NCBI GenBank assembly: GCA_963750735.1 | Contig: CAVVRY010000018.1 | Coordinates: forward strand, 10,751-74,750 | Source: an uncultured Bacteroidales bacterium | Lineage (GTDB): Bacteria; Bacteroidota; Bacteroidia; Bacteroidales; VadinHA17 | Direction: 5' to 3' | Length of the DNA stretch: 64,000 nt | In this document: piece after piece, positions 10,105 through 43,360 of the stretch | Numbering within the stretch: the stretch's first letter is position 1 | Layout of the letters: each line of letters starts with the position of its first letter | The notes under the pieces: generated by a model | Seen by the model: only the letters and a program-made list of their open reading frames with translations | Database searches by the model: none | Told to the model about the DNA's origin: nothing | Made by a program: the position numbers and the translations under genes

Positions 10105-10800
10105 TTAACTGGTATGGCTTATCTTTTCCAGGGCCTCCATGTCTTTTATTTCGAAAGAATTTCCCTCAACACTAACGAACCCCTTTAATTTAAACTCCCT
10201 TAAAATCCGTATAAAACTTTCTTTGGCCAGGGAAGCAATATCAGCAAGGTCCTGCCGGGTTAGATTTGTTGTAAATGAGGGAGAATTGTATATAGCTTTT
10301 GACAAATAAATAAGAGCTTCAGCTACCCGGCCATGCATATTTTTATGCGTAAGTGTAATAAGTTTATCGTGGAGATTGACATGGATTTTATTCAGATAAC
10401 CGATAAATTGCATGGCAAATTCAGTGTTTCCCCTCATAACTTTTTCAAAAGCTTTTATATCAATAAAGCAAACCAGAGAATTTTCGAGTGCCATTACTGA
10501 AAAATGATGTTTGAAATCTGACATAAAACCAGGTCCGCCTACAAGCTCATTTGGCTTTCGAACAGTAAGTAAAAGGTTGTTCTTGTTACTATCTTCAATA
10601 TAAATTTTGAGCAATCCGCTTGTTAGGGCAGCCAAATGGGTTAAGGCACCATTTTGCTTAAAAACCGTTTCGCCAGCATTGAACCGAATTTCATATCGGT
10701 TTTCATCTAAATAAGCTAATTCTTCCTTGTTTAGATAATTGAAAAGGCTCAGTTTAAAGGGGCAATTCAGACAATTTAATTTCTTTGGTTGCTCTGCCAT
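10105..10800 (-). CDS. Crp/Fnr family transcriptional regulator (N-terminal CxxC)
   Basis: N-terminal CLNCPFK, cNMP-binding-like domain, HTH LTRQDLADIASLAKESFIRIL. Confidence 0.9.
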   Translation of the reverse strand: MAEQPKKLNCLNCPFKLSLFNYLNKEELAYLDENRYEIRFNAGETVFKQNGALTHLAALTSGLLKIYIEDSNKNNLLLTVRKPNELVGGPGFMSDFKHHFSVMALENSLVCFIDIKAFEKVMRGNTEFAMQFIGYLNKIHVNLHDKLITLTHKNMHGRVAEALIYLSKAIYNSPSFTTNLTRQDLADIASLAKESFIRILREFKLKGFVSVEGNSFEIKDMEALEKISHTS

Positions 10801-10887
10801 TTTTATTTCAGAAAAAGGGTTAAAGTGCGAATCTAAATAATTTTCAATGATTTACAAATAGATAAATGAAAAATATATACAATCTGA

Positions 10888-10901
10888 TTGATATTTGTCA
10901 A
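10888..10901. promoter_or_regulatory. FNR-type box
   Basis: TTGAT-ATTT-GTCAA (consensus TTGAT-N4-ATCAA, 1 mismatch) in the divergent region between the Crp/Fnr gene and the hexaheme lipoprotein gene. Confidence 0.65.
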
Positions 10902-11056
10902 TATCAGGGTTATAATATATCAGTTTGACTAAGGAAAAAGAATTTTATTTAAAGGACTTATTACACGCCGATTTCTCTTGCTATGACCCGTATATTTAAT
11001 AAAATTGTCATGTTATAAAATTAACAAACGAAAACTATTTCTAACTAATAAAAATT

Positions 11057-12145
11057 ATGATTATGAGAAACCTGAAACTTTTAACTTTTTTACTCGCTGT
11101 ATTAGCTGTATTTGCTATGAGCTGCGAAGGCCCAATGGGACCTGCAGGACAAAATGGTGCTAATGGTACAAACGGTACAGATGGTACAGATGGCGTAGAT
11201 GGCAATATTACTTGCCTGGCATGTCACTCCAGCGATAACATTCAAAGCGTTAAAGAGCAATTTAATCAATCTGTTCACTCAGCCGGTCAAATAGCAGTTG
11301 ACTATGCAGGTGGCCGTTCTTCTTGTGCCCAGTGTCACTCAAGCGAAGGCTTTATTGAGTGGGCTCATAATGGCTCAGTTGCAGAAAACATTGCAGCACC
11401 TAGTGCTTGGGAATGTGCAACATGTCACGGCTTGCATTCAAGTTTTGAAGTGACTGATTATGCATTAAGAGCTGATGATCCGGTTGAATTTATTTTTGAC
11501 GAAACAGTTGTAGCTGATTTTGGCAACAGTAATTTATGTTCAAACTGTCACCAGTCACGTAGAGCTGAGCCAAACGTTTCTGATCCTGGTACTGAATTTG
11601 AAATTACAAGTACACATTATGGACCACATCATGGCGCACAATCAAATGTTCTTTATGGTGCGGGTTTTGCTGAAATAGCTGGTTCAGTTTCCTACCCAGA
11701 CGCAGGATCAGCAAACCATATGGGTGCATCTTGTACAGGTTGTCACATGGCCGATGGTGGCACTGTAACTGATCAAGGAGGTCATACATTTAATCCATCT
11801 CTAAAATCTTGTAATGACTGTCACGGTGCAAGTGATGAGAATTTCAACTATGGTGGCGTACAAACAGCAGTTCATAATCAACTTGAGGAGTTGAGAGATA
11901 TTTTATTGGGTCTTGGAGTTATCGAGGAAGGCATAGAAGAAGTGTATGAACTGAATCCGGAGACCGGTGATATAGAATTAGTAGTATATACAGATGGATA
12001 TCATCCTGTAGTAGGTACTTATCCAATGGAACAGGCTCAGGCTTTCTTTAACTGGGTAGGTCTGGAAGAAGATCGTAGCATGGGTGTACACAATCCAAAA
12101 TATGTTAATGCTTTATTGACAAATACAATTGAAGCTTTACAATAA
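11057..12145 (+). CDS. Hexaheme cytochrome c lipoprotein with collagen-like (Gly-X-Y) linker
   Basis: Lipobox AMSC; GPMGPAGQNGANGTNGTDGTDGVDG; six CxxCH (CLACH, CAQCH, CATCH, CSNCH, CTGCH, CNDCH); C-terminal EEDRSMGVHNPKY resembles c552/NrfA-fold C-termini. Confidence 0.88.
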   Translation: MIMRNLKLLTFLLAVLAVFAMSCEGPMGPAGQNGANGTNGTDGTDGVDGNITCLACHSSDNIQSVKEQFNQSVHSAGQIAVDYAGGRSSCAQCHSSEGFIEWAHNGSVAENIAAPSAWECATCHGLHSSFEVTDYALRADDPVEFIFDETVVADFGNSNLCSNCHQSRRAEPNVSDPGTEFEITSTHYGPHHGAQSNVLYGAGFAEIAGSVSYPDAGSANHMGASCTGCHMADGGTVTDQGGHTFNPSLKSCNDCHGASDENFNYGGVQTAVHNQLEELRDILLGLGVIEEGIEEVYELNPETGDIELVVYTDGYHPVVGTYPMEQAQAFFNWVGLEEDRSMGVHNPKYVNALLTNTIEALQ

Positions 12146-12160
12146 TTGAGAAATAGTGGT

Positions 12161-12191
12161 AAAAAAAAAGCTTCGCGAGAAGCTTTTTTTT
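12161..12191 (+). terminator. Rho-independent terminator (bidirectional-looking)
   Basis: A9-GCTTC-GCGA-GAAGC-T8 hairpin directly after the hexaheme gene. Confidence 0.85.
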
Positions 12192-12233
12192 ATCTTTATA
12201 GTAAAAATTATGTCTTATTTTAATAGAATCAGT

Positions 12234-12614
12234 ATGAAAAAACTATTGAAACTTCTTATCCAACTGCATTTTTCGCTTTAATCTATCTTTCTTCTTGCGA
12301 ATATGCATATATAGTTGAGGAAGAAATAGAGCCCCCTGATACAACAGTAGATATGAGCTTTAATAACTCAATAAAGCCCATATTTTCAAACCGAAACTGT
12401 ACCAATTGTCATAAGCCTAGTAGTACATCAGCCAGACCTGACTCCGGATAATGCTTATGGAGAGATAGTTCCAGACCTACGTAGATTTGACAATCCAGAT
12501 CTGAGTATTATATATACAAAGCCGCTTCCTGATGGCGACCATTTTCAGAAGTATACTGCAAAACAAGCACAGGATATTTTGCTTTGGATTCAACAGGGAG
12601 CAAAAGATAATTAA
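12234..12614 (+). CDS. Monoheme cytochrome c lipoprotein missing from the ORF track (two apparent frameshifts)
   Basis: Manual translation across shifts near 12261 and 12428: MKKLLKLLI..TAFFALIYLSSCEYAYIVEEEIEPPDTTVDMSFNNSIKPIFSNRNCTNCHK..QPDLTPDNAY..YTKPLPDGDHFQKYTAKQAQDILLWIQQGAKDN*. CTNCH is at 12398-12412. Confidence 0.75.
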
Positions 12615-12659
12615 AGTTTGGCAAATCAAGATTTTAAAAAAATATATAAAGAATATAGT

Positions 12660-13520
12660 ATGAAAAAGAAGATATTTCAACTGTCCCTGCTTTGGGTTTT
12701 CTTCGCTTTTGCAGGATATGCACAGGAAGCAACAGAGGAAAAAAAGGTGGACGACAGGCCTGTTTCATCTACTTTTGAAAGTAGTATGCTTATTGATAAC
12801 CAGACCAACATAATCCCGGATAAGAAAACCCTGGAAATGCAAATCCAGCATCGTTTTGGACCTATGACCAATGGCTTTTCAGATTTGTTTGGTATTTATG
12901 CACCGGGAGCCAATATTCGAATGGGATTTAACTATAGTATTATCGACAGATTGCTGGTGGGATATGGATTAACCAAGAAAAACATGTACAGTGATTTCCA
13001 GATCAAATATGCCCTTCTTCGTCAGACCCGCTCGGGCAGAATACCTTTATCAATTACCTTATACGGAAATGCTGCCATTGACAGTAGGGATAAAGAGGTT
13101 TTTGGAACAGAGTACAAATTTGTTGATCGACTATCCTATTTTGGTCAGGTGATTTTTAGTAGAAAATTTGCCGACTGGCTTTCGCTACAAATACATGGTA
13201 GTTATACACATTATAATATTGTCGCTGAGGATATGGATCACGATAAAATTGGTGTAGGTATTAACGGACGAATTAAATTTTCACCTCAGTCTTCAATCAT
13301 ATTCCAGTATGATCAACCGATCAGTGTTCAGGGTAAATCAGAATCTAAACCAAACCTGGGTTTTGGCTATGAGGTTTCAACTTTTACACATGCTTTCCAG
13401 ATTTATGTGGGAACAGCACAGGGTATAATTCAGCAGGATAACTACATGTATAATCAGAATGATTTCACCAAAGGTGAAATGATGTTTGGCTTTACCATAA
13501 CAAGATTGTGGCAGTTTTAA
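12660..13520 (+). CDS. DUF5777-family outer-membrane beta-barrel protein
   Basis: Signal peptide GYA/Q; IQHRFG, LFGIY..ANIRMG, THAFQI, FGFTITRLWQF with terminal aromatic residue; amphipathic strands. Confidence 0.8.
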   Translation: MKKKIFQLSLLWVFFAFAGYAQEATEEKKVDDRPVSSTFESSMLIDNQTNIIPDKKTLEMQIQHRFGPMTNGFSDLFGIYAPGANIRMGFNYSIIDRLLVGYGLTKKNMYSDFQIKYALLRQTRSGRIPLSITLYGNAAIDSRDKEVFGTEYKFVDRLSYFGQVIFSRKFADWLSLQIHGSYTHYNIVAEDMDHDKIGVGINGRIKFSPQSSIIFQYDQPISVQGKSESKPNLGFGYEVSTFTHAFQIYVGTAQGIIQQDNYMYNQNDFTKGEMMFGFTITRLWQF

Positions 13521-13709: not shown

Positions 13710-15209
13710 ATGAAACTTCCAAAATCATTTTATAGCTGGACAACTGCTATGGGAGCTGCTATTGCAACAATTAGCTTTATATTATTTGTTTTTTTGATAG
13801 TTCTTTCTTTTTTATTTGGTGAAGGCTCAGGCTATACGGGACTTGTTACCTACATTATTTTACCCGTTTTTATAGTTATTGGAGGATTAATGATTCCAAT
13901 AGGAATATTCACAAAACGCAGGAGAGAAAAAAAGCACAAGGTTGTTAGAGAAGTAAAATTTCCAATTTTTGATTTTAATGATCCAAAACAGCGAAGAATA
14001 TTTTTCATTTTTGGAACGGGAACTATAATTTTTTTGATGTTGATAGGGCTGGGGAGCTATGAAGCTTTTCATTATACTGAGTCAACAACTTTTTGTGGTA
14101 CTGTTTGCCATTCTGTAATGGAGCCTGAATATGTAGCGTACCAAAACTCATCACACGCAAAGGTTGGCTGTGTTGACTGCCACATTGGAGGAGGGGCTAG
14201 CTGGACAGTAAAATCTAAATTATCCGGATCATATCAGGTGTATTCTGTTGCATTTAATAAATATGAAAAACCCATTCCAACTCCTGTCCATAATCTTCGT
14301 CCGGCACAGGAGACCTGTGAAGAATGTCACTGGCCTGAGAAGTTTTACTCACGCAAGCTGGACCTTGAGAAACATTACCTGGCGGATGAAAAGAATACTG
14401 AGTGGGATATTAACCTGCAAATGAAAATTGGTCCTGAACACAGCGGTCATGGTCTGAAAGAAGGTATTCACTGGCACATTAATCCGGATATTAAGGTAGA
14501 ATATATATCTAATGATCCTAAGAGGGAGCAGATATCCTGGGTTCGATATACCAATAAAATTACAGGCGAGGAGATTATTTTTCAGGAAGAAGGTGTAAAT
14601 TATACCCAGGAACAATTTGATACACTTGAGATTCGAACCATGGATTGTCTGGATTGCCATAACCGACCATCACACAATTATAATTCTCCTATGACCTTTG
14701 TAAATACGGCCATAAGTGCCGGAGCTATCCCGCAGGAATTACCTGAAATTAAGATGCTGGCTCTTGAAATTATGGGTGGTGACTACCCATCGAAGGATAG
14801 TGCCATGAAGTATATTGAAACAACTGTGAATGAATATTATGAATCCTCCTATAGTGAAATATACCAGGATAGGAAAGAGCTGATAGAAATGGCCATTACC
14901 GGATTACAAACAGAGTTCAATAAGAACATATTCCCCGGGATGAAAGTTAACTGGAGAGCCTATCCAAATCATATTGGCCATTTGGAATTCAACGGTTGCT
15001 TCCGTTGCCACAACGACCAGCATAGTGATGAAAGCGGAAAAACTATTTCTATGGATTGCAACTTGTGCCATACTATTGTGGGCCAGGGAGTACCTGATAC
15101 ACTTCAGGTGGCTAAATACAATGAATCACTTGAGTTTGTGCACCCCAATGACCCTGATCAATACTGGAAAGAAATGCTATGTGTTGACTGCCATAGTGGT
15201 TTGTATTAA
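13710..15209 (+). CDS. NapC/NirT-family inner-membrane heptaheme cytochrome (ImcH-like)
   Basis: Three N-terminal hydrophobic helices; YTESTTFCGTVCH..MEPEY..SSHAKVGCVDCH NapC/NirT signature; 6 CxxCH plus 1 CxxxCH. Size and architecture match Geobacter ImcH. Confidence 0.85.
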   Translation: MKLPKSFYSWTTAMGAAIATISFILFVFLIVLSFLFGEGSGYTGLVTYIILPVFIVIGGLMIPIGIFTKRRREKKHKVVREVKFPIFDFNDPKQRRIFFIFGTGTIIFLMLIGLGSYEAFHYTESTTFCGTVCHSVMEPEYVAYQNSSHAKVGCVDCHIGGGASWTVKSKLSGSYQVYSVAFNKYEKPIPTPVHNLRPAQETCEECHWPEKFYSRKLDLEKHYLADEKNTEWDINLQMKIGPEHSGHGLKEGIHWHINPDIKVEYISNDPKREQISWVRYTNKITGEEIIFQEEGVNYTQEQFDTLEIRTMDCLDCHNRPSHNYNSPMTFVNTAISAGAIPQELPEIKMLALEIMGGDYPSKDSAMKYIETTVNEYYESSYSEIYQDRKELIEMAITGLQTEFNKNIFPGMKVNWRAYPNHIGHLEFNGCFRCHNDQHSDESGKTISMDCNLCHTIVGQGVPDTLQVAKYNESLEFVHPNDPDQYWKEMLCVDCHSGLY

Positions 15210-18400: not shown

Positions 18401-18560
18401 AGTGAACTATTACCTGGCTGGTCTTCATTCTTATGCTGCTGGCGATGCTGTACCCATTCCGAAGTTTGTTTATTTTACGGTCGCAAGCCTTGTTTTAATA
18501 ATTCTTTTTGCCTGGTTCAACGAAAAGAATTTTAGAAAAAAGATCCCTGCTGTTAAGTAA
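15462..18560 (+). CDS. ccsA: Fused System II cytochrome c synthetase CcsBA (ResB-CcsA, NrfI-like)
   Basis: N-terminal ATFIEND..YNARWFE and FHFAFLFIFLGSAITRY (ResB part); C-terminal HAPWSNGYE, LKSYWLTIHV and WWD motif WANESWGRYWGWDPKETW, GLHSYA. Confidence 0.93.
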   Translation: MKKIFDFLFSMQWMAFLILIMIFSTATATFIENDFGPAAARAAVYNARWFEVLLLFIIINLIGNMIVNKVYKTKKLSIFIFHFAFLFIFLGSAITRYISYEGSMHIRENDSSDRIISSQSYLSIEAENESGDVQYHEKTQFIAGKKNKFNKTLKIGNESLKLKLTRYIPNAEKSLIPDPVGEPVVSFVTLGSEGRQPHLLTPGETEHIADFHVGFNNAAADFNIVIKDEGLYFTSKNDVSLMDMGTNSQTPLADGELHPFETKRLYTTNNTQIVLSDFVNKGKVDWVVGPNDGAFRPDVLLLEASFKSKTEILPCFGKADRIGTQQSFDLDGTTVTLTYGPRWIQLPFALFLKDFQLERYPGSNSPASYASEVTLIDRESGIEKPYRIFMNNILNYKGYRFFQSSYDTDEKGTILSVNHDAMGTFVTYIGYFLMTLGMVLSIFNKNSRFRSLARSGNNTRGVAATVSTLLVLAFTTLMPSTLNAQTASGTNDVISSSQANELSSILVQDQGGRIKPLQSMASDVMRKVVKSESVNGMNSMQVVMGMYLFPESWQHVPMIKVTNGEIQKMLGVRDKFVSYVDFFDMAAMGQYKLSKIVQEAYQKKPGLRTKLDQEILKVDERVNVCYMVYSGSIIRIFPVLNDPNHKWYGPAEAVSVVPKSDSIFVSGVLASYKNSIAQKGNEATASEIINGIKKYQQINAGELYPAKSKISLEIFYNRIHIFDKLTKYYAIIGFILLILLLISVLNEKTGINKIIRIATLLLLLGFIFHTFGLGIRWYISEHAPWSNGYESMIYIAWAAMLSGLIFVRKSTFTLVAASLLAALTLMVAHMSWMNPEITNLVPVLKSYWLTIHVSVITASYGFLGTGMVLGLFNLVLYIMKTDKNHFKLEKQIKTLSEINELSLILGVYFLSVGTFLGGVWANESWGRYWGWDPKETWALITALVYIFITHMRFVPGLKGDFAFNLASVVGFFSVLMTYFGVNYYLAGLHSYAAGDAVPIPKFVYFTVASLVLIILFAWFNEKNFRKKIPAVK

Positions 18561-27933: not shown

Positions 27934-27963
27934 CCTGACTCGTCCTGAAAAAGGTTTACAGGT

Positions 27964-28829: not shown

Positions 28830-28846
28830 TGTAGGATATACTTCTT

Positions 28847-35330: not shown

Positions 35331-35927
35331 TTATTTAAGGTGACAGGTCAGACAAAGTGCACTACCTCCATTATCCAATCGAAGAAAATTGCCAAATTGA
35401 TTATCGTGCACATCATGACATGAAGCACACTCCATCCTTTCTGAAAACAACATATCTGCATCTATGGTTCCACCAAGACCTGAATTCACAGCAGAAGGAT
35501 CTGCCAGTCCATCATCAATTGTAGAGAGAGCAGTATTGTAGTCAAAACTTATAGGATGGTCATTATCTAAACTTGTACCAACTAAAGCGCTCCCAGTCAT
35601 AAAATTTGTTCCAGTATTACCTCCAAAACTTTCAAGAGCAACAGTACCATCATGACAACTGAGGCACAATAATGAATTTGAGCCTGGTTGTGCAACGGTG
35701 GCATCTAATGTTGGCGAAGTATACAAAGTAAATGTTGCGGTAGTAACGTCATGATTCCATAGCGGAGCATTGGCCACAGCAGTACCATTGTGGGGAGTAT
35801 GGCAGACTATACAAATTTCACCTCCTGACCAGGTGTCACCACTAAAGTCATGACCAGAACCTGTAATTTGACCAAATGCTATTACTGTCAAGCACATCAA
35901 AAAAGAAGCAATTAGTATTTTTTTCAT
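35331..35927 (-). CDS. omcE: OmcE-like tetraheme cytochrome c (candidate cytochrome nanowire subunit)
   Basis: Signal AFG/Q; ordered motifs SGHDFS, EICIVCHTPHN, PLWNH, TFTLYTS, SLLCLSCHDG, VGTSLDNDHPISF, MECASCHDVHDN, FLRLDNGGSALCLTCH match Geobacter OmcE as I recall it (not aligned computationally). Confidence 0.85.
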   Translation of the reverse strand: MKKILIASFLMCLTVIAFGQITGSGHDFSGDTWSGGEICIVCHTPHNGTAVANAPLWNHDVTTATFTLYTSPTLDATVAQPGSNSLLCLSCHDGTVALESFGGNTGTNFMTGSALVGTSLDNDHPISFDYNTALSTIDDGLADPSAVNSGLGGTIDADMLFSERMECASCHDVHDNQFGNFLRLDNGGSALCLTCHLK

Positions 35928-36515: not shown

Positions 36516-36607
36516 TGATGATCCTTAAAATACTGGAGCAGCTGCAATACCTTGCAGCCTGGTATACCAAGGAATAGTCCGTCCGATCACTCAGTGTGAC
36601 TTTAATT

Positions 36608-39391
36608 CTAGCCAAATATGAAGGCATAAATAAGAAGGATAACCATTAAAAACCCAATACCCAGGAAGATAAAACCAAAGGTTTTGATTAAGCGCATCCA
36701 GTCTTTAGAATAGGTTTTCTCAACTACCAGTTCTTTTAACTTACCTGATTCTTTTAATTCTTCGTATTCTCTGGGTCTTTCGTGCTTAAAAGTTTCCAAT
36801 GGCATATGTCCTGTGAAAATTACAGTATCCATTGGGAAGGCTTCAGGGCGGAAATGGGTATTGAAGAAGTGAACCGTAAAGATAAATCCTACGGCAAGAA
36901 GGGCCTCATCACTGTGAATGATCTGAGAAATGTTAATGACCCAACCAGGTAAGAACTTGGTAAAGAATACCGGGAACCAAAGTACCAGACCGCTAAAACC
37001 AATCACCGCAACCCCCCAGAATACAGCCATATAGTCAAATTTCTCCCAGTACGTCCATCTGCCATAATTAGGGCGTGGTCCCCGTCCTAAAAACCATTTT
37101 ATTGTGGCTCCAAAGTCTCTAATATCCTGCTTGTTGAACATCAGTGAATTTCTACCGAATACGAATTCAACAAAGGACTTGCGTCGTTTGATTTTTTGCC
37201 GGATCAAATTAAATAGATGAAACGCAAAGTAACCAAAGGTAATAATGGCACCGATGCGGTGCAATACTCCTGCTCCCTGAACTCCACCTACAATTGACGC
37301 AATTGTTTTGGCCCATTCCATATGGGCGAATTTCAGCATCATACCGGTCAGGGCCAGCAGAATGAAACTTACTATAACAAATAAATGAGTAATTCTTTGA
37401 TTTCTGCTAAACCTTCTGAAATAGGTGGCAGGGCCATCAGTTTTTACATGATGGTGCTTTTTCCTCTCTTTAAATGATCTTGGTAACCACAACAGGATAT
37501 GCAAACCAAAAAAGCCAAACACTCCTAATAAAAGGGATGTCATAAACCAATAGGTATATTTTAGTGCAGGTGCATCATCGTGGGTGGAATGATTCAGGTA
37601 TCCGGTAAACCTGTAGTTGGCACCTGTATGACACCGGGAACAGGTTGAAACAATATTGTTTTCACCGACCATTGAATTGGGGTTGTTCACCTTTAATACA
37701 TTGTGTGCGCCATGGCAATCGGAACAACGGGCCGCCTCAAGATAGCCTAATTGGTAAGCCTTACCATGATAAGTATCCATATAGGTTTCAGAGAGTTCTT
37801 CATGACAGGCCCCACACTGAACGGTAACTTCCGTCATAAACTCATCTTGTTTACTTGGTGAAATCACGTGTGCTGAATGGCAATTCACACAGGTTGGCAG
37901 CTTTACTAAAGTATCAGTCCTGGTAATTGAATGATCACTGGTAATATATTCGTCATAGATTCCTTTATGGCAGGTAGCACAGGTAGCAGGAATATTAGAA
38001 GGGTGAACAGATGAACGTTCATCCTCTTCCTTTAGCATAAAATGAGTTGTATGGCAATCAGTACATACGGCACTTACGCTTAAGCCTTTTTCTATTAAGC
38101 CTTTTCCATGTACACTCTGAGAATAATCCAAATAAGCGTCTTTCTCTTTGAGGTCGGCATGTTCAGTTGCCTTTCCATCTTCCTTATGACATGAACCACA
38201 CAATTCAGGGATTAAAGTATGATAAGTTGGTGAGGTATCGTCATATCTCGATTGTGTTTTGTGGGTTCCGTGGCAATCGGTACAATACGGTGCATTTTCA
38301 TCATTTGCATAATATGCCTTTCCGTGTCCGCTATCAAAATACAGGTCAAAGACTTCTGAATGGCAGTTTGAGCAATCGACCTTGCCCGCTGTTTCACAGG
38401 CTGAATTACTGGTATGAGGTTTAATATCGGTATGGCATTTAGCACATGGGATATTTTTATGCACAGAAGTAGATAAGTCGGCCCGATTTACAAACATTGA
38501 AACTTGTTCCCCATCAATAACTTTATGTACGTCATCCTTTTCATGACAACTAAGGCATGTTTTATCGGCAATATTGGCTTCCACAAAGGTCACATTCTCA
38601 CGATGAGGTGGATGGCAACTATTACAAACAGGAATGGAATTTGGATCTTTCTCCCACAATTCTCCTCTTATTACCTTTTTGTGAACTTCTTCAATTTTTG
38701 TATGGCACTTAAGGCAGGTTTTTGCAATATTGTTTGGAGATACAGTTGAATTGCGACTGGTATGAGCCAATACCATATGATTTCCATGGCAATCATTACA
38801 GGTGGCCGTTACAATCAATCCTTTGTTAAATAATCCTTCACCATGAATTCCCTGGGTATAGTTCTCTATAATATTGTGCTCTGAAACGTCATATCCACGT
38901 GAAACAGGAGCACCTTCCTTATGACATTTACCGCAAAGAATGGGAATATTGGTTTTATAGGTGCGTGAATTTAATTCAGTATAGTGCAAAATATCATGCC
39001 TTCCATGACATTCTTTGCAATCCGGTGCGTGGCTGTCGCCCATTTTCAATGCCTGGCCATGTATTCCCGCAAAAAACCGGCGATCTGGTTCTTCATGACA
39101 GGTACCACAACTTACCTTAGCCAGATTTTCCGCATGCGGATAATCAGCCACGGCGGCATCAGCATGGCACAAGGCACAGTCAACATCTTTATGAACTGAT
39201 TTGTCCAGGATGGCGGTGTTTACAAATAATGAAACAGTACGACCATTTCTTACTGTACTCAGGTCAGGATCCTCATGACACATGAGGCAGTCATCCCTTG
39301 ATTGTGAATTTGCGTTAATTATAAATAAAAACGATAGAATAAATGCCGATAAAAGACTTTTAGTCAGGCTAAAGCATTGGTTTATTCTCAT
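36608..39391 (-). CDS. CbcL-like fusion: 19-heme periplasmic cytochrome c domain plus membrane cytochrome b domain
   Basis: 19 CxxCH, then six hydrophobic helices with [59 protein letters not shown] (diheme b ligands). Confidence 0.9.
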
Positions 39392-39763: not shown

Positions 39764-40432
39764 TTAATGTCCCTCATGATAGCCGGTTATCATACTTTTA
39801 AAAAGAGTTGAAGATTTATCTCCCAGTGTACATGTATAAATGTGGATAAGCATAAACAGGGAAAGTATAAATCCTGTGGTAATATGAATCAGGTCATTAA
39901 TAAGCAACCCACTTATATTAAAAATCCTGTTCACTATCAATTCCGGGAAAAACATAGCTATTCCTGATAAGATTAACAAGGGCATGCCTACATACATAGC
40001 CAGGATATAACTTACTTTTTGCAGGGGATTGAATTTGCTGTTTTCAGTAACCGGAAAAGGATGTGGTTCTCCCTTAAACATACCATATGCATAATATCTT
40101 CCCTGTATGTAGAGATTTTTAAGAAGGCCTTTTTCTCCAAACCTATAATGTTTACTGTTACCGGTTGTAATGTTACCAATTATAAATACCAAGAAATTAG
40201 CGCTTAAAATCAGTGCTGTTATGTTGTGCCATTTAACTGCTGCACCAAAGTTCATAAGGAAAAATTCATTTTTCGCATTTGCTGCAGCTTCTGAACCAGC
40301 AGGCAATAACCACCCGGCGGCCCCGGCATATTGCATACTTAAGCCTGTAGCGATAAGCACAATAAATAGGAGAGCATTGAGAATATGCCAGGACCGAATC
40401 CATTTTGGATATAAATATAGTTTATGACTCAT
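39764..40432 (-). CDS. Membrane cytochrome b (Ni-hydrogenase/FdnI-type; CbcB-like)
   Basis: IRSWHILNA..ATGLSM, WHNI, KFNPLQKVSY, LIHI..FMLIHIY; four TM helices; overlaps the upstream heptaheme gene. Confidence 0.88.
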   Translation of the reverse strand: MSHKLYLYPKWIRSWHILNALLFIVLIATGLSMQYAGAAGWLLPAGSEAAANAKNEFFLMNFGAAVKWHNITALILSANFLVFIIGNITTGNSKHYRFGEKGLLKNLYIQGRYYAYGMFKGEPHPFPVTENSKFNPLQKVSYILAMYVGMPLLILSGIAMFFPELIVNRIFNISGLLINDLIHITTGFILSLFMLIHIYTCTLGDKSSTLFKSMITGYHEGH

Positions 40433-41435
40433 GTTTTACTTTTTTTGAATTTAATATCCTGAAAAACACGTGAATGCCAATCCCAAATAATGTTCCCGCA
40501 AGGAATATAAAACTTAAAATATTAAGATATTTATTTCGGTTGGCACCAATCACATAAGATTCATTTATTATTATACCATTAAAAAATCCTGATTGTCTCT
40601 GTTCCCGGGATTTGAATTTATAAAGAGTATTCATTAACCTGGTATCTTGAGAATGGCATTCAATACATCGTTGTACAGCCTCTGACTTTGGAAGCAGGAG
40701 ATGGGCTACTAATATGGTATCGTTTATTTGGGTATGACACTCAATACACCTGACCTTGGTAAAATGCAGTGCCTGGTTTGGAAGCCATTCATGTGTTTGA
40801 ACAATATCAAGCTCCCCATGATCAGTCAGCAACTGGTATCGGTCGAAGTTCGTATGACAGGCAAGACACATATCGTTTGCAAAAGTTACTATTTCAGAGA
40901 AGTCATCACTTCTTCGAACAGTTGGAACATAACCATGTGGATCGTGGCATTTCCAGCAGGAAAATCCATCCCCTTCATGACCATAATGCACACTTGCCTG
41001 ATACTCAACTTCGATTTCCTCAAAATGGTATTGGGCAAAAGCTTCATCACCACCATGACAATCTATACAAGTGGGATGTTCCTCAAAAATAAGTTCAGCC
41101 GGATGCGGAAAGGTGTTAAAATCATATGAGTGGCAATCAGTACAGCTAAAGTTTTTGTGAACCGACATGTAATAAACCTCCCTGGATAATATCTTATCCA
41201 TAGGCATCAAACGCCGCATTATTTTGCCGGTTTCAGGATTCTCATATTCATATCTTGCACCACTATGGCATGTAAAACACACTTCATTATCAGCATAAGA
41301 GGCAAACTGTTCTGAGAGGCTGTCCTGAAAATAGCCTGGTACAGTTGGAATGTCAGGTAAAATATTCCCAAAGGAGGGCAGCATGGTAATAAGAAATATT
41401 ATTACCAGACATTTTTTTTGAAATATATCTTTCAT
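40422..41435 (-). CDS. Heptaheme cytochrome c with C-terminal membrane anchor (CbcA-like)
   Basis: Seven CxxCH (CFTCH, CTDCH, CIDCH, CWKCH, CLACH, CIECH, CIECH); HEWLPNQALH; YVIGANRN followed by a TM helix ending GIHVFFR. Confidence 0.88.
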   Translation of the reverse strand: MKDIFQKKCLVIIFLITMLPSFGNILPDIPTVPGYFQDSLSEQFASYADNEVCFTCHSGARYEYENPETGKIMRRLMPMDKILSREVYYMSVHKNFSCTDCHSYDFNTFPHPAELIFEEHPTCIDCHGGDEAFAQYHFEEIEVEYQASVHYGHEGDGFSCWKCHDPHGYVPTVRRSDDFSEIVTFANDMCLACHTNFDRYQLLTDHGELDIVQTHEWLPNQALHFTKVRCIECHTQINDTILVAHLLLPKSEAVQRCIECHSQDTRLMNTLYKFKSREQRQSGFFNGIIINESYVIGANRNKYLNILSFIFLAGTLFGIGIHVFFRILNSKKVKHES

Positions 41436-41682: not shown

Positions 41683-41761
41683 TTATCAATTAATTTTGGG
41701 TTGAACGAATTAGTTGGGTGATTATTCGGCGCTAAATTAGGAGTTGTATTATTATTTGTTA

Positions 41762-41852
41762 ATGATTTAAATCAGGGTACTTAAGTGATATATAAACGTG
41801 ACGCAGGTCACACCTGATAAGCGATATATTTTGGTGTCATGACAAATATCAA
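41762..41852. promoter_or_regulatory. Cluster of Crp/Fnr-type palindromes in a divergent promoter
   Basis: ATGAT-TTAA-ATCAG (41762-41775), GTGAC-GCAG-GTCAC (41798-41811), ATGAC-AAAT-ATCAA (41839-41852); TACATTTG -7 element at 41875-41882. Confidence 0.6.
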
Positions 41853-41899
41853 CCTCCTTCGCATTTTTTATCACTACATTTGGAAACAAATTAGAATAC

Positions 41900-42598
41900 G
41901 TGTTTGAGATTATAGCGAATAAAACAACCTGTAGCAACTGTGGATTTATTTCACAGGCAGCTAAATTCTTAAAGGAAGCAGAGCTTAAAGAACTAGCACA
42001 GGGAACTGTGGATGTAAGCCTTAAAAGAGGGGATAAACTTTTTGTGGAAGGGCTTCCTCACTCGCATGTAATATATTTACGGGAAGGATTTGTAAAAGTT
42101 CATATGACTGGCCCAAATGGCCGGGATCAGATATTGAAATTTGCCAGACCTGGAGCCTATCTTGGGATACAATCTCTGATGGGTTCGGATGTAAACAGGT
42201 TTTCTGCGACCGCCCTTGAAAATGTACGTTTATGTTATATTAATGGCAACACTTTCAAGAATCTTATTCAAACTAATGCTTCTTTTTCAGCCGAAATTTT
42301 GACATTTTTGTGTAAAGATGAGTTGAATTATTTTGAAAGATTTGTTAGCCTTCAGCAAAAAAATAATAGCGGTAAACTAGCAGATGCTCTTTTATATTTT
42401 TCAGGTAGAGTTTTCGAAAGTGATACATTCACTCTACCCTTAACCTATGTTGATTTAGCTGCCTTAACTGGAACAACCAGAGAAAGTACTACCCGTTTGA
42501 TAAAAGATTTCGTTAAAGGCGGAATTATTGAAGTAAACAGCCGGGAAATAAGAATCATTGACAAAGGCATCCTTACAAAAATCAGTGAGAACGGTTAA
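41900..42598 (+). CDS. Crp/Fnr family transcriptional regulator (N-terminal CxxC)
   Basis: TTCSNCGF; cNMP-like domain; HTH LPLTYVDLAALTGTTRESTTRLI. Confidence 0.9.
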   Translation: MFEIIANKTTCSNCGFISQAAKFLKEAELKELAQGTVDVSLKRGDKLFVEGLPHSHVIYLREGFVKVHMTGPNGRDQILKFARPGAYLGIQSLMGSDVNRFSATALENVRLCYINGNTFKNLIQTNASFSAEILTFLCKDELNYFERFVSLQQKNNSGKLADALLYFSGRVFESDTFTLPLTYVDLAALTGTTRESTTRLIKDFVKGGIIEVNSREIRIIDKGILTKISENG

Positions 42599-42620
42599 TC
42601 CCTGTTAAATCCAAGAATAA

Positions 42621-43307
42621 TTAACCTTTATTACTTATCTGACTCAGGAGGTCCTGCTTTAGAATTTCAATAGAATTTCCGGAAACGGTTATAACATCCT
42701 CATTATCAAAAGATTTAAGAATTTTGAAAGTACTTTCTTTCGACATGCCTGCCATCTCAGAAAGCTCCACCTTTGAGATATTCAAAGTAAATGGATTGGC
42801 TTCATAAATTTCTTCTGAGAGGTACAATAAAGCCTCCGCTATTTTGCCCTGATTGTTTTTCTGGTTTAGATTCAATAATTTGTTTAAAGTTTGAATCAAA
42901 TTCTTCTGTGAAAGCCGCATGAAAGCCTTTGTAAAAATCATATTTGATTCCAACACCTTGATAAAAGCCATTCTTTCAATAAAAGATACAGAAGATTCTT
43001 CTATGGCCGTTACCGAGTAATGGTGGATATTGTCTCCAAGTAAGCCGGCTCCTGTAATATATTCAATAGGTTTGATGAGTCGGATGATCAGATTTCTCTC
43101 GTTTGAACCTGTCATATGGATTTTTGCCATCCCTGTAGTAAAGGACAAAAGATGAGTACAGGCGGTACCTTGTTTAAATATGGTTTCCCCGGGTTTGTAT
43201 ATTACCTCATGTTTGTTTTCATTAATCAGGTTTAACTCTTCTGTAGTTAGAAGATCAAAAACATTGGCATTGATTGAGTGATGAGATCCGTGTCCGTGAT
43301 TGGCCAT
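42621..43307 (-). CDS. Crp/Fnr family transcriptional regulator (His-rich N-terminus)
   Basis: MANHGHGSHHS start (ATG at 43307); YKPGETIFKQG; HTH ISKVELSEMAGMSKESTFKIL. Confidence 0.88.
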   Translation of the reverse strand: MANHGHGSHHSINANVFDLLTTEELNLINENKHEVIYKPGETIFKQGTACTHLLSFTTGMAKIHMTGSNERNLIIRLIKPIEYITGAGLLGDNIHHYSVTAIEESSVSFIERMAFIKVLESNMIFTKAFMRLSQKNLIQTLNKLLNLNQKNNQGKIAEALLYLSEEIYEANPFTLNISKVELSEMAGMSKESTFKILKSFDNEDVITVSGNSIEILKQDLLSQISNKG

Positions 43308-43346
43308 AAAATTCAGATTGAAGGGTGCTAATATACACAATAACGA

Positions 43347-43360
43347 TTGATTTACATCAA
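43347..43360. promoter_or_regulatory. Perfect FNR box upstream of the third Crp/Fnr gene
   Basis: TTGAT-TTAC-ATCAA, 40 nt upstream of the ATG; a weaker TTGAC-ATTA-ATTAA lies at 43375-43388. Confidence 0.72.

What the first reader, a model, noticed from the sequence alone, without database searches (positions are those of the whole stretch)
10105..43360. Self-contained Geobacter-style extracellular electron transfer island in a Bacteroidota genome (~100 heme motifs)
Seen: 11 c-type cytochrome genes with about 100 heme motifs by manual count (6+1+7+14+12+4+21+5+4+19+7), two cytochrome b domains, two outer-membrane barrels, three NHL propellers, a fused CcsBA and three Crp/Fnr regulators, all in 33 kb between housekeeping genes. 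Established: Geobacter sulfurreducens links the quinone pool to external acceptors through ImcH/CbcL/CbcBA, periplasmic cytochromes, porin-cytochrome conduits (e.g. ExtABCD) and polymerised cytochromes (OmcE/OmcS/OmcZ), encoded at scattered loci. Inference: every tier of that chain is present here in one co-regulated block, in a phylum usually regarded as fermentative polysaccharide degraders. This suggests respiration of Fe(III)/Mn(IV), humics or electrodes, or direct interspecies electron transfer.
Basis: partly seen in the sequence, partly recalled or inferred. Interest (0 to 1): 0.93.

Follow-up and report, generated by a model that had tools for sequence, protein, structure and literature searches.

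The report
Cytochrome nanowire respiration island in Bacteroidales
An uncultured sediment Bacteroidales genome carries a 33-kb gene block with relatives of each part Geobacter uses to pass respiratory electrons out of the cell, including a likely nanowire subunit, so this bacterium can probably breathe solid minerals, though similar genes were already reported in this phylum.

Summary
Window 10105-43360 has 10 intact multiheme c-type cytochrome genes with 99 heme motifs, plus one frameshifted monoheme gene. It also has two cytochrome b domains, two outer-membrane barrels, three NHL propellers, a CcsBA fusion and three Crp/Fnr regulators.

- 13710-15209 is an ImcH homolog.
- 36608-39391 is a CbcL-type protein with 19 hemes.
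- 40422-41435 plus 39764-40432 is a CbcBA-type pair.
- 35331-35927 is a full-length OmcE nanowire-subunit homolog (E 1.3e-25 to 7TFS).
- Around it lies the omcE-type cluster: two propellers, a roughly 30-strand barrel, a pentaheme lipoprotein and an MtrA-family cytochrome.
- A conserved 12-heme protein joins an OmcE-like domain to an MtrA-like wire.

The island is native to this genome, not a chimera. Its composition matches the genome, an island protein carries a T9SS sorting domain, relatives share the gene order, and an independent contig bridges one border.

It is not unprecedented. ImcH, CbcL and cbcBA homologs and candidate conduits were already reported in Bacteroidetes. The omcE-type core occurs in at least eight phyla by record titles, and its tree follows taxonomy. 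I file it as a new member of a known kind. The most interesting lead is the 12-heme fusion as a possible filament anchor or tip.

The parts
10105..10800 (-). Crp/Fnr-type regulator 1, with an N-terminal CxxC
   Evidence: Pfam cNMP_binding 5.8e-15 and HTH_Crp_2 1.5e-13. N-terminus read.
11057..12145 (+). Hexaheme lipoprotein with a collagen-like Gly-X-Y linker after the lipobox. Possible surface cytochrome.
   Evidence: 6 CXXCH. Weak MtrC/MtrF II-IV, c7 and c552 hits. No PDB sequence hit.
12231..12612 (+). Monoheme lipoprotein gene, frameshifted. Either a pseudogene or an assembly error.
   Evidence: CXXCH at 12398-12412 lies in a 74-codon frame. The pieces align in two frames to an intact 127-aa gene beside DUF5777 in G018.
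12618..13520 (+). Small outer-membrane beta-barrel (DUF5777)
   Evidence: Pfam PF19089, E 4.4e-79. Again paired with a monoheme gene in L093, L130 and L175.
13710..15209 (+). ImcH homolog: inner-membrane quinol-oxidising heptaheme cytochrome
   Evidence: 3 N-terminal transmembrane helices and CX3CH + 6 CXXCH. NapC/NirT domain. 38-49% identity over the full length in 40 of 61 Desulfuromonadia-class genomes. E124, K170, Q176 and Y185 are invariant at the ImcH offsets.
15462..18560 (+). Fused CcsB(ResB)-CcsA system II cytochrome c synthase
   Evidence: Pfam Cytochrom_C_asm 5.1e-39 and ResB 2.4e-20. Adjacent to the same cluster in L107, L128 and L130.
18636..20411 (-). 14-heme cytochrome of no named family
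   Evidence: 13 CXXCH + CX4CH and the GSu_C4xC__C2xCH motif. Only generic relatives found.
20433..22625 (-). NHL propeller + Ig-like + PKD protein with a type IX secretion sorting domain
   Evidence: Por_Secre_tail 1.5e-16, NHL, Ig-like_POM152 and PKD. SprA is present in G000. A homolog sits by the cluster in L114.
22783..24465 (-). 12-heme protein: OmcE-like tetraheme N-domain fused to an MtrA-like 8-heme wire. Candidate filament anchor or tip.
   Evidence: Residues 21-207 match 7tfs at 1.6e-25 and 9yuq_N at 1.2e-26. Fold: OmcE Z 10.7, MtrA Z 10.2. All 8 OmcE-type His are invariant. 12 motif His + 13 other His are invariant in 43 rows.
24468..25547 (-). NHL beta-propeller A, always upstream of the 12-heme gene
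   Evidence: Pfam NHL 1.1e-22. Synteny.
25793..26323 (+). Soluble tetraheme cytochrome (c554-like). Candidate periplasmic carrier.
   Evidence: Pfam Cytochrome_C554 1.1e-16. Signal peptide and no lipobox. Conserved in G012, L114 and L130.
26535..27239 (+). Conserved lipoprotein of unknown function
   Evidence: Lipobox. No significant Pfam family. 49-51% identical copies in the clusters of G009 and G012.
27655..29200 (.). Insertion: DUF559 gene plus IS3-type transposase fragments
   Evidence: DUF559 2.4e-26, rve_3 1.6e-15 and HTH fragments. Absent at this spot in G012. Contigs of run X2 diverge at 27223 and 29464.
29463..31136 (-). 21-heme MtrA/DmsE-family periplasmic wire
   Evidence: TIGR03508 scores 212.7 bits against a cut-off of 192.2. 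MtrA 6r2q_A 9.9e-15. Relatives have 8-14 hemes.
31148..33118 (-). Roughly 30-strand outer-membrane barrel, unnamed family
   Evidence: No Pfam or NCBIfam hit. AlphaFold pLDDT 86.7. Best TM among the top hits is MtrB 6r2q_B at 0.45. Atlas clusters are all 'hypothetical'.
33440..33997 (-). Pentaheme lipoprotein
   Evidence: 5 CXXCH and an LGGC lipobox. Paired_CXXCH 4e-22.
33990..35060 (-). NHL beta-propeller lipoprotein B
   Evidence: Pfam NHL 3.1e-11. Lipobox. 54-75% identical in relatives.
35331..35927 (-). OmcE homolog: tetraheme candidate nanowire subunit
   Evidence: 7tfs_A 1.3e-25 over residues 6-198 against 11-232. 9yuq_N 1.9e-23. 4 CXXCH + 4 further His invariant.
36608..39391 (-). CbcL-type quinol oxidase: 19-heme domain fused to a dihaem cytochrome b membrane domain
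   Evidence: 19 CXXCH and transmembrane helices at 616-925. Ni_hydr_CYTB. Residues 535-927 are 46-51% identical to single-copy proteins in 53 of 61 genomes. A 9-heme+b ORF in L182 aligns at E 8e-139.
39764..40432 (-). CbcB-like 4-helix dihaem cytochrome b
   Evidence: Ni_hydr_CYTB 6e-24. Thiosulfate-reductase cyt b model 2.5e-49, below its cut-off. 4 invariant His.
40422..41435 (-). CbcA-like heptaheme cytochrome with a C-terminal membrane helix carrying a His
   Evidence: 7 CXXCH and a transmembrane helix at 306-324. The helix His is conserved with L189 and L191 proteins.
41900..42598 (+). Crp/Fnr-type regulator 2, with an N-terminal CxxC
   Evidence: Pfam.
42621..43340 (-). Crp/Fnr-type regulator 3, with a His-rich N-terminus
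   Evidence: Pfam. N-terminus read.

Best explanation
The block is a native genomic island of an uncultured Bacteroidales bacterium. It encodes a complete route for extracellular electron transfer, built around an omcE-type cytochrome-nanowire cluster.

Proposed path (inferred, not shown):
1. NADH feeds a menaquinone pool through Na+-NQR. Both are encoded elsewhere in the genome.
2. Menaquinol is oxidised at the inner membrane by one of three alternative oxidases: an ImcH homolog, a 19-heme CbcL-type fusion, or a CbcBA-type pair.
3. Electrons cross the periplasm through the soluble tetraheme cytochrome and the 21-heme MtrA-family wire.
4. They cross the outer membrane through the roughly 30-strand barrel with its pentaheme lipoprotein.
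5. They leave through the OmcE homolog, which probably polymerises into a filament. The 12-heme OmcE-domain/MtrA-like protein may link filament and conduit.

The two NHL propellers probably help assembly. CcsBA loads the hemes. The three Crp/Fnr regulators probably switch the block on under anoxic or reducing conditions. The likely acceptors are Fe(III)/Mn(IV) minerals, humics or partner cells in sediment.
For: Shown here.
- Gene content and heme counts.
- OmcE homology over the full length, E 1.3e-25. All four CXXCH and four further His are invariant in 9 of 9 aligned family members.
- The neighbourhood matches the minimal omcE cluster described for Desulfuromonadia: multiheme cytochromes, two beta-propeller lipoproteins, OmcE and a large barrel (PMC13712944, section 8). 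The same order recurs in G009, G012, G018 and G003 and in loci whose titles span at least eight phyla.
- ImcH: three transmembrane helices, 7 motifs, 38-49% identity over the full length in 40 of 61 genomes. The residues matching E127, K173, Q179 and Y188 are invariant.
- CbcL: 53 of 61 genomes, with a 9-heme+b relative at E 8e-139.
- CbcBA-type architecture, including the His in the CbcA C-terminal helix.
- The MtrA family model scores above its curated cut-off.
- The barrel model is confident.
- No catalytic subunit for a soluble acceptor appears among the island ORFs, and there is no CXXCK motif.

The island is native.
- Tetranucleotide correlation with the genome is 0.986, against a mean of 0.990 (sd 0.015) for 129 genome windows.
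- An island protein carries a T9SS sorting domain and the genome has SprA.
- Gln follows the signal peptide in 9 of 9 aligned OmcE-type proteins of this family. This is a Bacteroidetes trait according to the abstract of PMC5837995.
- A contig of run X2 spans 42948-44400, across the right border.
- The 12-heme tree puts the window in a Bacteroidota clade (SH-aLRT 96), inside a Bacteroidota/Ignavibacteriota/Calditrichota/Chlorobiota clade (SH-aLRT 99).

Genome context: futalosine-pathway markers, UbiA-family genes and NqrA are present.

Weak evidence.
- Barrel plus the C-terminal part of the 12-heme protein gave 'weak support': median score 0.50 (runs 0.00, 0.50, 0.54), best of 3 controls 0.00. 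That mark was reached by 58 of 80 solved complexes and 2 of 110 mismatched pairs, but at 0.60 or under by only 7 of those 80 solved complexes and by both mismatches that passed. Partner pLDDT was at least 76, and the runs agree in at least 11% of contacts. Likeness to the solved MtrAB complex may explain the pass.
- 5 of the 7 FNR-box-like sites inside the island fall in intergenic promoter regions (one search read against the ORF map). AT-rich spacers bias this count.
Against: - There is no expression or physiology evidence. No RNA run holds the stretch, and the organism is uncultured.
- OmcE-like sequences are widespread, and polymerisation cannot be read from sequence.
- CbcA and CbcB are only 23-34% identical to the Desulfuromonadia-class pairs. 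No sigma-54 BccR-type regulator is present.
- The barrel has no sequence link to MtrB/PioB, and its fold match is generic (TM 0.45).
- One gene is frameshifted and an IS remnant sits inside the cluster.
- The FNR-box motif is not enriched over the whole window: 10 sites against 8.1 expected.
- CbcL/MtoC-type and Mtr-type parts also work in the inward direction in Fe(II) oxidisers (PMC6295460 abstract).
- Neither menA nor NuoD was found.
Confidence: 0.75

Rival explanations
1. The gene set is the same, but the OmcE homolog does not polymerise. The cluster would then be a porin-cytochrome conduit whose tetraheme and 12-heme proteins sit as monomers on the cell surface, giving short-range transfer only.
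For: - Petersen et al. note that OmcE-like sequences are widely distributed and restricted their own set by gene context (PMC13712944 passages).
- Filaments have been solved only for Geobacter and Desulfuromonas OmcE.
- Identity to 7TFS is moderate: the 12-heme N-domain model is 33-34% identical to 7TFS.
Against: - All eight heme-ligating His are invariant, including those that would be needed for inter-subunit ligation if the packing is as in OmcE.
- The defining neighbours (barrel and two propellers) are all present.
Confidence: 0.3
2. The island runs inward. It would take electrons from Fe(II), cathodes or partner cells into the quinone pool, with cytochrome bd oxidase or another sink as the acceptor.
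For: - CbcL/MtrH/MtoC homologs occur in both Fe(III) reducers and Fe(II) oxidisers (PMC6295460 abstract).
- The genome has cytochrome bd.
- A monoheme gene sits next to a small barrel (DUF5777), which recalls the cytochrome-porin Cyc2. That resemblance is recalled, not tested.
Against: - The abstract passage of PMC6295460 begins to state that ImcH homologs are found only in Fe(III)-reducing bacteria, but the passage is cut there.
- OmcE and ImcH are tied to acceptor reduction in Geobacter.
- The monoheme gene is broken here.
Confidence: 0.1
3. The cytochromes serve a soluble-acceptor pathway in the periplasm (nitrite, sulfur compounds, DMSO/TMAO) rather than extracellular transfer.
For: - There are weak below-cut-off matches to NrfH, NrfB, TorC and cytochrome c552 models.
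- The best model for the small cytochrome b is the thiosulfate-reductase cytochrome b subunit, at 168 bits against a cut-off of 204.
Against: - None of the 30 ORFs scanned shows a molybdopterin, sirohaem, NrfA-type (CXXCK) or octaheme catalytic subunit.
- The 'thiosulfate reductase-like' label is the usual misannotation of CbcB, according to the Joshi et al. preprint.
- An outer-membrane barrel, lipoprotein cytochromes and a T9SS cargo protein all point outward.
Confidence: 0.04
4. The island is an assembly or binning artefact, foreign DNA joined to a Bacteroidales contig.
For: - The genome is a metagenome-assembled genome with 4.87% estimated contamination.
- An IS remnant lies inside the block.
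- In G003 both flanks end at contig breaks.
Against: - Composition is indistinguishable from the genome.
- An island protein has a T9SS domain and island proteins follow the Q-rule.
- Same-genus G003 holds 60-81% identical island proteins, while the flanking DNA is 80-81% identical.
- An X2 contig bridges the right border.
- The tree places the island's 12-heme protein with other Bacteroidota.
Confidence: 0.02

Closest known systems
omcE nanowire gene cluster of Desulfuromonadia (Geobacter sulfurreducens OmcE, PDB 7TFS; Desulfuromonas soudanensis OmcE, PDB 9YUQ; Petersen et al., mBio 2026, PMC13712944)
   Same: - A tetraheme subunit of about 200 aa with four CXXCH and four further conserved His.
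- Neighbours are a large beta-barrel, two beta-propeller proteins and multiheme cytochromes.
- Cytochrome c synthase genes lie nearby.

   Different: - The host phylum is not among the five that paper lists.
- No glycosylation gene block is present.
- The MtrA-type partner has 21 hemes.
- An extra propeller protein is a T9SS cargo.
- Control is by Crp/Fnr regulators.
- Filament formation is untested.
ImcH of G. sulfurreducens (GSU3259)
   Same: - Three transmembrane helices and a NapC/NirT-like core.
- Seven heme motifs, the first being CX3CH in all 7 aligned sequences.
- Conserved Glu, Lys, Gln and Tyr around heme 1.

   Different: 38-49% identity. It is encoded inside the island next to CcsBA. 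Its role at high-potential acceptors is untested.
CbcL of G. sulfurreducens (CbcL/MtrH/MtoC family)
   Same: A periplasmic multiheme domain fused to a dihaem cytochrome b membrane domain. The b part is 46-51% identical.
   Different: 19 heme motifs instead of 9. This lies within the 3-23 range reported for the family (PMC6295460 abstract).
CbcBA of G. sulfurreducens (GSU0593-0594)
   Same: - A heptaheme CbcA with a C-terminal helix bearing a His.
- A four-helix cytochrome b that is usually annotated as thiosulfate-reductase-like.
- The two genes are adjacent.

   Different: Only 23-34% identity to the Desulfuromonadia-class pairs found here. There is no sigma-54 BccR regulator.
MtrCAB of Shewanella (PDB 6R2Q)
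   Same: The MtrA/DmsE family model is passed. A large barrel is encoded next to it, and MtrB gives the best TM-score among the top barrel hits.
   Different: - The barrel has about 30 strands and no MtrB/PioB sequence signal.
- There is no MtrC homolog as such.
- The wire has 21 hemes.
Geobacter porin-cytochrome conduits (OmaB-OmbB-OmcB, ExtABCD)
   Same: The gene logic is the same: periplasmic multiheme cytochrome + porin + lipoprotein cytochrome. These systems are named from the ImcH preprint's introduction.
   Different: No sequence of these proteins was available to me, so homology was not tested.

Membership tests
OmcE (tetraheme nanowire subunit) | Four CXXCH motifs in a protein of about 200-230 aa that is mostly coil | tested here: met
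   198 aa with CXXCH at 39, 88, 167 and 192.
OmcE (tetraheme nanowire subunit) | Four further conserved His that complete bis-His ligation, one of them across subunits | tested here: met
   H26, H46, H124 and H174 are invariant in 9 of 9 sequences, and each aligns to a His of 7TFS. The feature is as stated in PMC13712944 passages. Ligation across subunits itself cannot be tested here.
OmcE (tetraheme nanowire subunit) | Sequence similarity to solved OmcE filament subunits over the whole length | tested here: met
   7tfs_A E 1.3e-25 (6-198 against 11-232). 9yuq_N E 1.9e-23.
OmcE (tetraheme nanowire subunit) | Gene neighbourhood with a large beta-barrel and beta-propeller lipoprotein(s) | tested here: met
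   Barrel at 31148-33118, propellers at 33990-35060 and 24468-25547. The criterion comes from PMC13712944.
OmcE (tetraheme nanowire subunit) | Polymerises into a conductive extracellular filament | not testable with these tools
   Needs purification and cryo-EM.
ImcH | N-terminal membrane domain (three helices in Geobacter) followed by a NapC/NirT-like multiheme domain with seven motifs | tested here: met
   Helices at 18-36, 49-67 and 97-115. CX3CH at 129 plus 6 CXXCH. Pfam Cytochrom_NNT 1.9e-12.
ImcH | Heme-1 His/Gln ligation and conserved Glu/Lys/Tyr near the quinol site (E127, K173, Q179, Y188 relative to H137) | tested here: met
   E124, K170, Q176 and Y185 are invariant in 7 of 7 sequences at the same offsets from H134, in a gap-free stretch. 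The residue list comes from preprint passages. The G. sulfurreducens sequence itself was not in hand.
ImcH | Orthology to the Geobacter protein | tested here: inconclusive
   Full-length matches at E <= 1e-100 in 40 of 61 genomes of the class that holds a 'Geobacter sp.' MAG.
CbcL (CbcL/MtrH/MtoC) | Multiheme c domain fused to a C-terminal dihaem cytochrome b membrane domain | tested here: met
   19 CXXCH, then Ni_hydr_CYTB and helices at 616-925. A 9-heme+b relative in L182 aligns at E 8e-139.
CbcBA | Heptaheme CbcA with a C-terminal helix that supplies a His, plus a four-helix CbcB | tested here: met
   7 CXXCH. Helix at 306-324 with a His that aligns with those of L189 and L191. The b subunit has 4 helices and 4 invariant His. 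Features come from preprint passages.
CbcBA | Sigma-54-dependent BccR-type regulator beside the operon | tested here: not met
   No sigma-54 interaction domain appears among the island ORFs scanned. Three Crp/Fnr regulators are present instead.
CbcBA | Close sequence similarity of CbcB | tested here: inconclusive
   28-34% identity, several copies per genome, in 36 of 61 genomes.
MtrA/DmsE decaheme family (TIGR03508) | Score above the curated cut-off | tested here: met
   212.7 bits against 192.2, in 5 stretches.
MtrA/DmsE decaheme family (TIGR03508) | Ten hemes | tested here: not met
   21 motifs here, and 8-14 in relatives.
MtrB/PioB outer-membrane barrel | Sequence membership | tested here: not met
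   No NCBIfam or Pfam family at the thresholds used.
MtrB/PioB outer-membrane barrel | Large barrel fold able to hold a heme wire | tested here: inconclusive
   Roughly 30 strands, pLDDT 86.7. 6r2q_B scores TM 0.45/0.46, E 2.6e-8, among generic large barrels.
Type IX secretion cargo | C-terminal sorting domain, and a T9SS translocon in the genome | tested here: met
   Por_Secre_tail 1.5e-16 at 654-728. SprA_N 4.8e-191 in G000:C1.

The most novel reading that the evidence does not exclude
The conserved 12-heme protein (22783-24465) may be the missing terminal subunit of OmcE-type nanowires. Its N-domain is a complete OmcE fold that could dock onto the filament end. Its C-terminal MtrA-like 8-heme wire could sit in, or on, the roughly 30-strand barrel, so that one protein seeds or anchors the filament and wires it to the periplasm.

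Supporting observations:
- It has 12 heme motifs and 25 invariant His (2n+1), the kind of surplus that Petersen et al. predicted for an anchor (PMC13712944 discussion).
- It sits within a few kb of the short OmcE gene in 18 of 19 Bacteroidales-order carriers, in 8 of 8 phylum-sample carriers and in many Desulfuromonadia-class genomes.
- The family has at least 6817 unnamed clusters in public data.

If this is right, it applies to cytochrome nanowires in general and not only to this genome.
Probability: 0.3. Interest if true: 0.8.

Novelty: new member of a known kind. Interest (0 to 1): 0.6.

Why it matters
Bacteroidales are abundant in anoxic sediments and digesters and are usually modelled as fermenters. 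A complete, conserved route to mineral or partner-cell acceptors would let some of them respire polymers fully. That would change carbon and iron budgets in coastal sediment, which is where DNA of this island turns up.

The wider point is that the omcE-type nanowire module is not a Geobacter speciality. The same gene set appears under record titles from at least eight phyla, and its tree follows taxonomy.

The module also includes a conserved 12-heme OmcE-fusion protein. This offers a concrete, testable candidate for how such filaments are anchored or capped. The latest structural paper raises that question and states that no tip candidate is encoded in the OmcE operons.

Tried and rejected
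- Whole-window test for FNR boxes (TTGAT-N4-ATCAA, 1 mismatch allowed): 10 sites against 8.1 expected, and 34 of 100 shuffles reached 10. Not enriched.
- Expression: no RNA holder is listed for 29463-39391. This says nothing either way.
- Read laying gave only short contigs.
- PDB sequence searches gave nothing for the hexaheme lipoprotein and only a marginal hit for the 14-heme protein.
- Foldseek found no significant match for the C-terminal part of the 12-heme model. VIA-align then gave MtrA at Z 10.2.
- The Atlas gave only unnamed clusters for the barrel and generic cytochrome clusters for the 14-heme protein.
- The OmcE structure paper (PMC9357133) is not held.
- The eLife OmcZ paper had nothing on the omcE cluster.
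- The deep-sea chitin paper (PMC13374861) mentions Bacteroidota only as an enriched lineage.
- Literature searches for OmcE in Bacteroidetes found no paper describing an omcE-type cluster in this phylum. Supplementary tables of PMC13712944 and PMC6295460 could not be read and may list such homologs.
- I considered and rejected recent transfer from Desulfuromonadia. The tree groups the window with Bacteroidota, and phylum labels need 9 changes where 8 is the minimum.
- I considered a split Cyc2-like role for the monoheme + DUF5777 pair. It was not tested.

Full report
**What is there**

The window is G000:C18:10751-74750. The assembly is 4.68 Mb in 20 contigs, 96.85% complete with 4.87% contamination.

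Between 10105 and 43360 I count 95 CXXCH, 3 CX3CH and 1 CX4CH motifs in ten intact ORFs.

It is broken by frameshifts. Its pieces align in two frames to an intact 127-aa gene that lies beside a DUF5777 gene in relative G018.

Pfam confirms the rest:
- three Crp/Fnr regulators
- a DUF5777 barrel
- a ResB+CcsA fusion
- three NHL propellers, one with Ig-like and PKD domains and a type IX secretion sorting domain
- two cytochrome b561-type domains

An IS3-type remnant and a DUF559 gene lie in the middle, at 27655-29200. The 656-aa protein at 31148-33118 matches no Pfam or NCBIfam family. It folds with confidence (mean pLDDT 86.7) into a barrel of about 30 long strands by my count of the DSSP string.

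**Whose genome**

The AtpD gene next to the island is 96% identical to that of a Bacteroidales MAG. The 80 loci kept out of 515 relatives are nearly all titled Bacteroidales, Bacteroidota or Rikenellaceae.

Several results argue against a chimera.
- The island's tetranucleotide profile correlates 0.986 with the genome. For 129 other 33-kb windows the mean is 0.990 (sd 0.015), and 13% of them score lower than the island.
- An island protein carries a T9SS sorting domain, and the genome encodes SprA.
- In the alignment of OmcE-type proteins from this family, 9 of 9 have Gln at the end of the signal peptide. The abstract of PMC5837995, seen in a search listing, describes this as specific to Bacteroidetes.
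- A contig of public run X2 covers 42948-44400, across the right border.

The island is variable among close relatives.
- In G002 (same genus, 96% complete, no cluster found) atpD and the hydrolase gene are followed after about 3.7 kb by homologs of window 46457-47862. The island and the ribokinase block are missing there.
- In G003 (same genus) both flanks stop at contig ends, and a 6.5-kb contig holds 60-81% identical island proteins.

**The core is an omcE-type nanowire cluster**

The 198-aa tetraheme protein (35331-35927) matches the solved OmcE filament subunit of G. sulfurreducens over its whole length: 7tfs_A, E 1.3e-25, residues 6-198 against 11-232. It also matches the D. soudanensis subunit, 9yuq_N, at E 1.9e-23. 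All four CXXCH and four further His (H26, H46, H124, H174) are invariant in 9 of 9 aligned relatives. These are the features Petersen et al. report as conserved (PMC13712944; I read the outline, passages, and sections 8 and 12).

[quoted passage not shown] Read along the minus strand, the window has:
1. OmcE homolog
2. NHL lipoprotein
3. pentaheme lipoprotein
4. barrel
5. 21-heme MtrA-family cytochrome
6. the IS remnant
7. two plus-strand genes (a lipoprotein and a tetraheme c554-type cytochrome)
8. NHL propeller
9. 12-heme cytochrome

G012 has the same order without the IS, so the IS is a local insertion. Contigs of run X2 also diverge at 27223 and 29464.

**The 12-heme protein**

Residues 21-207 of the 560-aa product of 22783-24465 match OmcE (7tfs E 1.6e-25, 9yuq_N 1.2e-26) and keep all eight OmcE-type His.

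An AlphaFold model built from 43 sequences has mean pLDDT 78.7, with the C-terminal half near 90.
- Foldseek matches the N-domain to 7TFS: E 6.8e-8, TM 0.65 on the target.
- VIA-align gives OmcE Z 10.7 (rmsd 3.1, 168 aligned) and MtrA Z 10.2 (rmsd 3.9, 236 aligned, model residues 91-520).

Across the 43 rows, 12 motif His and 13 other His are invariant. That is one more than bis-His ligation of 12 hemes needs, although three further His are nearly invariant.

I found 48 near-full-length homologs in the 87 loci examined, and 46 of them have 11 CXXCH. For the alignment and tree I left out six: three over-long ORF calls (L102, L121, L142), L170, and two with 10 motifs (L115, L116).

A public-protein search gave 6817 clusters at E <= 1e-20 among the 8000 candidates scored. 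The only names were of the kind 'hypothetical' or 'predicted CXXCH cytochrome family protein', plus one row each of 'cytochrome c3 family' and a mis-assigned 'nitrite reductase pentaheme subunit'.

Petersen et al. ask for an anchor 'with a structure resembling OmcE' and a surplus His. [quoted passage not shown] My searches show a 540-620-aa frame carrying an OmcE-like domain a few kb from the short gene:
- in 18 of the 19 carriers in the order sample
- in all 8 carriers in the phylum sample
- in many of the 91 of 151 matching genomes of the class that holds a 'Geobacter sp.' MAG

So the fusion is a general member of the module, and it is a concrete candidate for that role.

A complex prediction of the barrel with the C-terminal wire gave 'weak support'. 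The median score was 0.50 (runs 0.00, 0.50, 0.54) and the best of 3 controls 0.00. That mark was reached by 58 of 80 solved complexes and 2 of 110 mismatched pairs, but at 0.60 or under by only 7 of those 80 solved complexes and by both passing mismatches. Partner pLDDT was at least 76, and the runs agree in at least 11% of contacts. Likeness to the solved MtrAB complex may account for the pass.

**Inner-membrane tier**

*ImcH.* The 499-aa protein at 13710-15209 has three N-terminal helices, a NapC/NirT domain, and CX3CH plus six CXXCH. It matches single proteins of about 490-570 aa over nearly its full length at 38-49% identity. Matches reach E <= 1e-100 in 40 of 61 genomes of that class, and 51 of 61 match at 1e-5. 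In the alignment E124, K170, Q176 and Y185 are invariant. They lie at offsets -10, +36, +42 and +51 from the first heme His. Those are the offsets of E127, K173, Q179 and Y188 from H137 in G. sulfurreducens ImcH, as given in passages of the bioRxiv preprint 10.1101/2023.05.03.539133.

*CbcL.* In the 927-aa protein at 36608-39391, residues 535-927 are 46-51% identical to single-copy 600-760-aa proteins in 53 of 61 genomes. One of these (L182, 613 aa) has nine CXXCH and a cytochrome b domain, and aligns to window residues 270-927 at E 8e-139. This is a CbcL-type protein with about ten extra hemes. That is within the 3-23 range reported for the family (PMC6295460, abstract and Table 1 passages).

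*CbcBA.* The pair 40422-41435 / 39764-40432 has the architecture described for CbcBA: seven hemes plus a C-terminal helix with a His, and a four-helix cytochrome b usually labelled thiosulfate-reductase-like. Identity to the class's pairs is only 23-34%, and there is no sigma-54 regulator.

**Distribution and origin**

- The 21-heme protein has relatives in 4 of 24 other genomes of the family and 1 of 3 of the genus.
- The OmcE profile finds 19 of 401 genomes in the order sample and 8 of 401 in the phylum sample, G000 included in both.
- A scan of species-representative genomes found 564 relatives. The best 80 carry titles from Bacteroidota (Bacteroidales, Cyclobacteriaceae, Saprospiraceae, Chitinophagaceae, Lentimicrobiaceae), Ignavibacteriota, Calditrichota, Planctomycetota, Verrucomicrobiota, Kiritimatiellota, Thermodesulfobacteriota, Pseudomonadota and others. 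Many of these loci hold the whole core.
- A quick IQ-TREE of 43 12-heme proteins puts the window in an eight-row clade of Bacteroidota and same-family genomes (SH-aLRT 96). That clade lies inside a 24-row Bacteroidota/Ignavibacteriota/Calditrichota/Chlorobiota clade (SH-aLRT 99). Phylum labels need 9 changes, where 8 is the minimum and the shuffled mean is 24.1.

The module therefore looks old in this group and patchily kept. It does not look recently borrowed from Geobacter.

**Context in the genome**

Markers found: futalosine-pathway genes (two VitK2_biosynth genes), three UbiA-family genes, NqrA and cytochrome bd. Markers not found: menA and NuoD.

Other multiheme genes lie elsewhere: a cytochrome b-fused 11-heme protein, a 10-heme protein, an 8-heme TPR protein, a 6-heme protein and two NapC/NirT-FGE fusions.

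DNA of the core turns up in 20 runs from 11 studies. Of these, 10 runs in 5 studies hold at least 0.21 of the sampled words, and they are labelled sediment, marine sediment, salt marsh or plain 'metagenome'. None is RNA.

**Against what is known**

- Joshi et al. (bioRxiv 10.1101/2021.04.15.440034, passages) already noted cbcBA clusters in Bacteroidetes (Prolixibacter, Marinilabiliales, Labilibaculum).
- PMC6295460 lists 5 CbcL-type and 1 ImcH homolog in Bacteroidetes.
- He et al. (bioRxiv 10.1101/392027, passages) reported candidate porin-cytochrome genes and outer-surface multiheme cytochromes in Bacteroidetes MAGs.
- Petersen et al. list five phyla for context-supported OmcE homologs, and Bacteroidota is not among them.
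- My searches found no paper describing an omcE-type cluster in Bacteroidota. Supplements were closed and may hold such lists.

**Verdict**

Function is still inferred. This is a new member of a known kind, in a phylum where pieces of the pathway had already been noticed. The most valuable lead is the conserved OmcE-domain/MtrA-like 12-heme protein as a candidate filament anchor or tip.

Noticed in passing
window 5964-7247: Three consecutive or overlapping ORFs (5964-6347, 6184-6585, 6744-7247) read like pieces of one FAD-linked oxidase gene. The N-terminus resembles FAD-binding oxidases, but that resemblance is recalled and was not tested. With the split gene at 46449-47901 and the broken monoheme gene, this suggests either several pseudogenes or indel errors in the assembly.
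   Followed up: no
window 46449-47901: Two adjacent same-strand ORFs of 327 and 154 aa look like one gene split by a frameshift. G002 has matching DNA for 46457-47862.
   Followed up: no
L090:1368-2108 (G009:C61): A second OmcE-like gene sits inside the cluster. It is 246 aa with five CXXCH, the extra motif lying in a C-terminal insert. This is the kind of 5-heme OmcE-like protein Petersen et al. mention as a possible new nanowire family.
   Followed up: partly
window 29463-31136 and its homologs in L090, L091, L095, L114, L128, L130: The MtrA-family wire varies from 8 to 21 heme motifs between relatives that share the same neighbours. It appears to vary by gain or loss of paired-CXXCH units.
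   Followed up: partly
window 12231-13520; L093:505-1753; L130:1005-4099; L175:2777-4093: A monoheme lipoprotein gene and a DUF5777 barrel recur together near the cluster. The pair recalls a split version of the cytochrome-porin Cyc2. That resemblance is recalled and untested.
   Followed up: no
window 11057-12145: The hexaheme lipoprotein starts with a collagen-like Gly-X-Y run right after the lipobox (Pfam Collagen 8.5e-4). This may be a flexible tether for a surface cytochrome.
   Followed up: no
G000:C7:112568-113776 and G000:C12:32362-33906: Two proteins fuse a NapC/NirT tetraheme membrane anchor to an FGE-sulfatase (formylglycine-generating-enzyme-like) domain. Function unknown.
   Followed up: no
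G000:C6:305591-307095: Cytochrome bd subunit I matches in two separate frames of 318 and 223 aa. This may be another frameshift.
   Followed up: no
window 36090-36103, 43347-43360, 10888-10901, 25744-25757, 39487-39500: FNR-box-like palindromes (two perfect, three with one mismatch) lie in the island's intergenic promoter regions. These are 5 of the 7 sites inside the island. The motif is not enriched over the whole window.
   Followed up: partly
window 42599-42621: Contigs of runs X2 and X7 diverge from the window in the short spacer between the two convergent Crp/Fnr genes (loose ends). Other populations may carry something different there.
   Followed up: no
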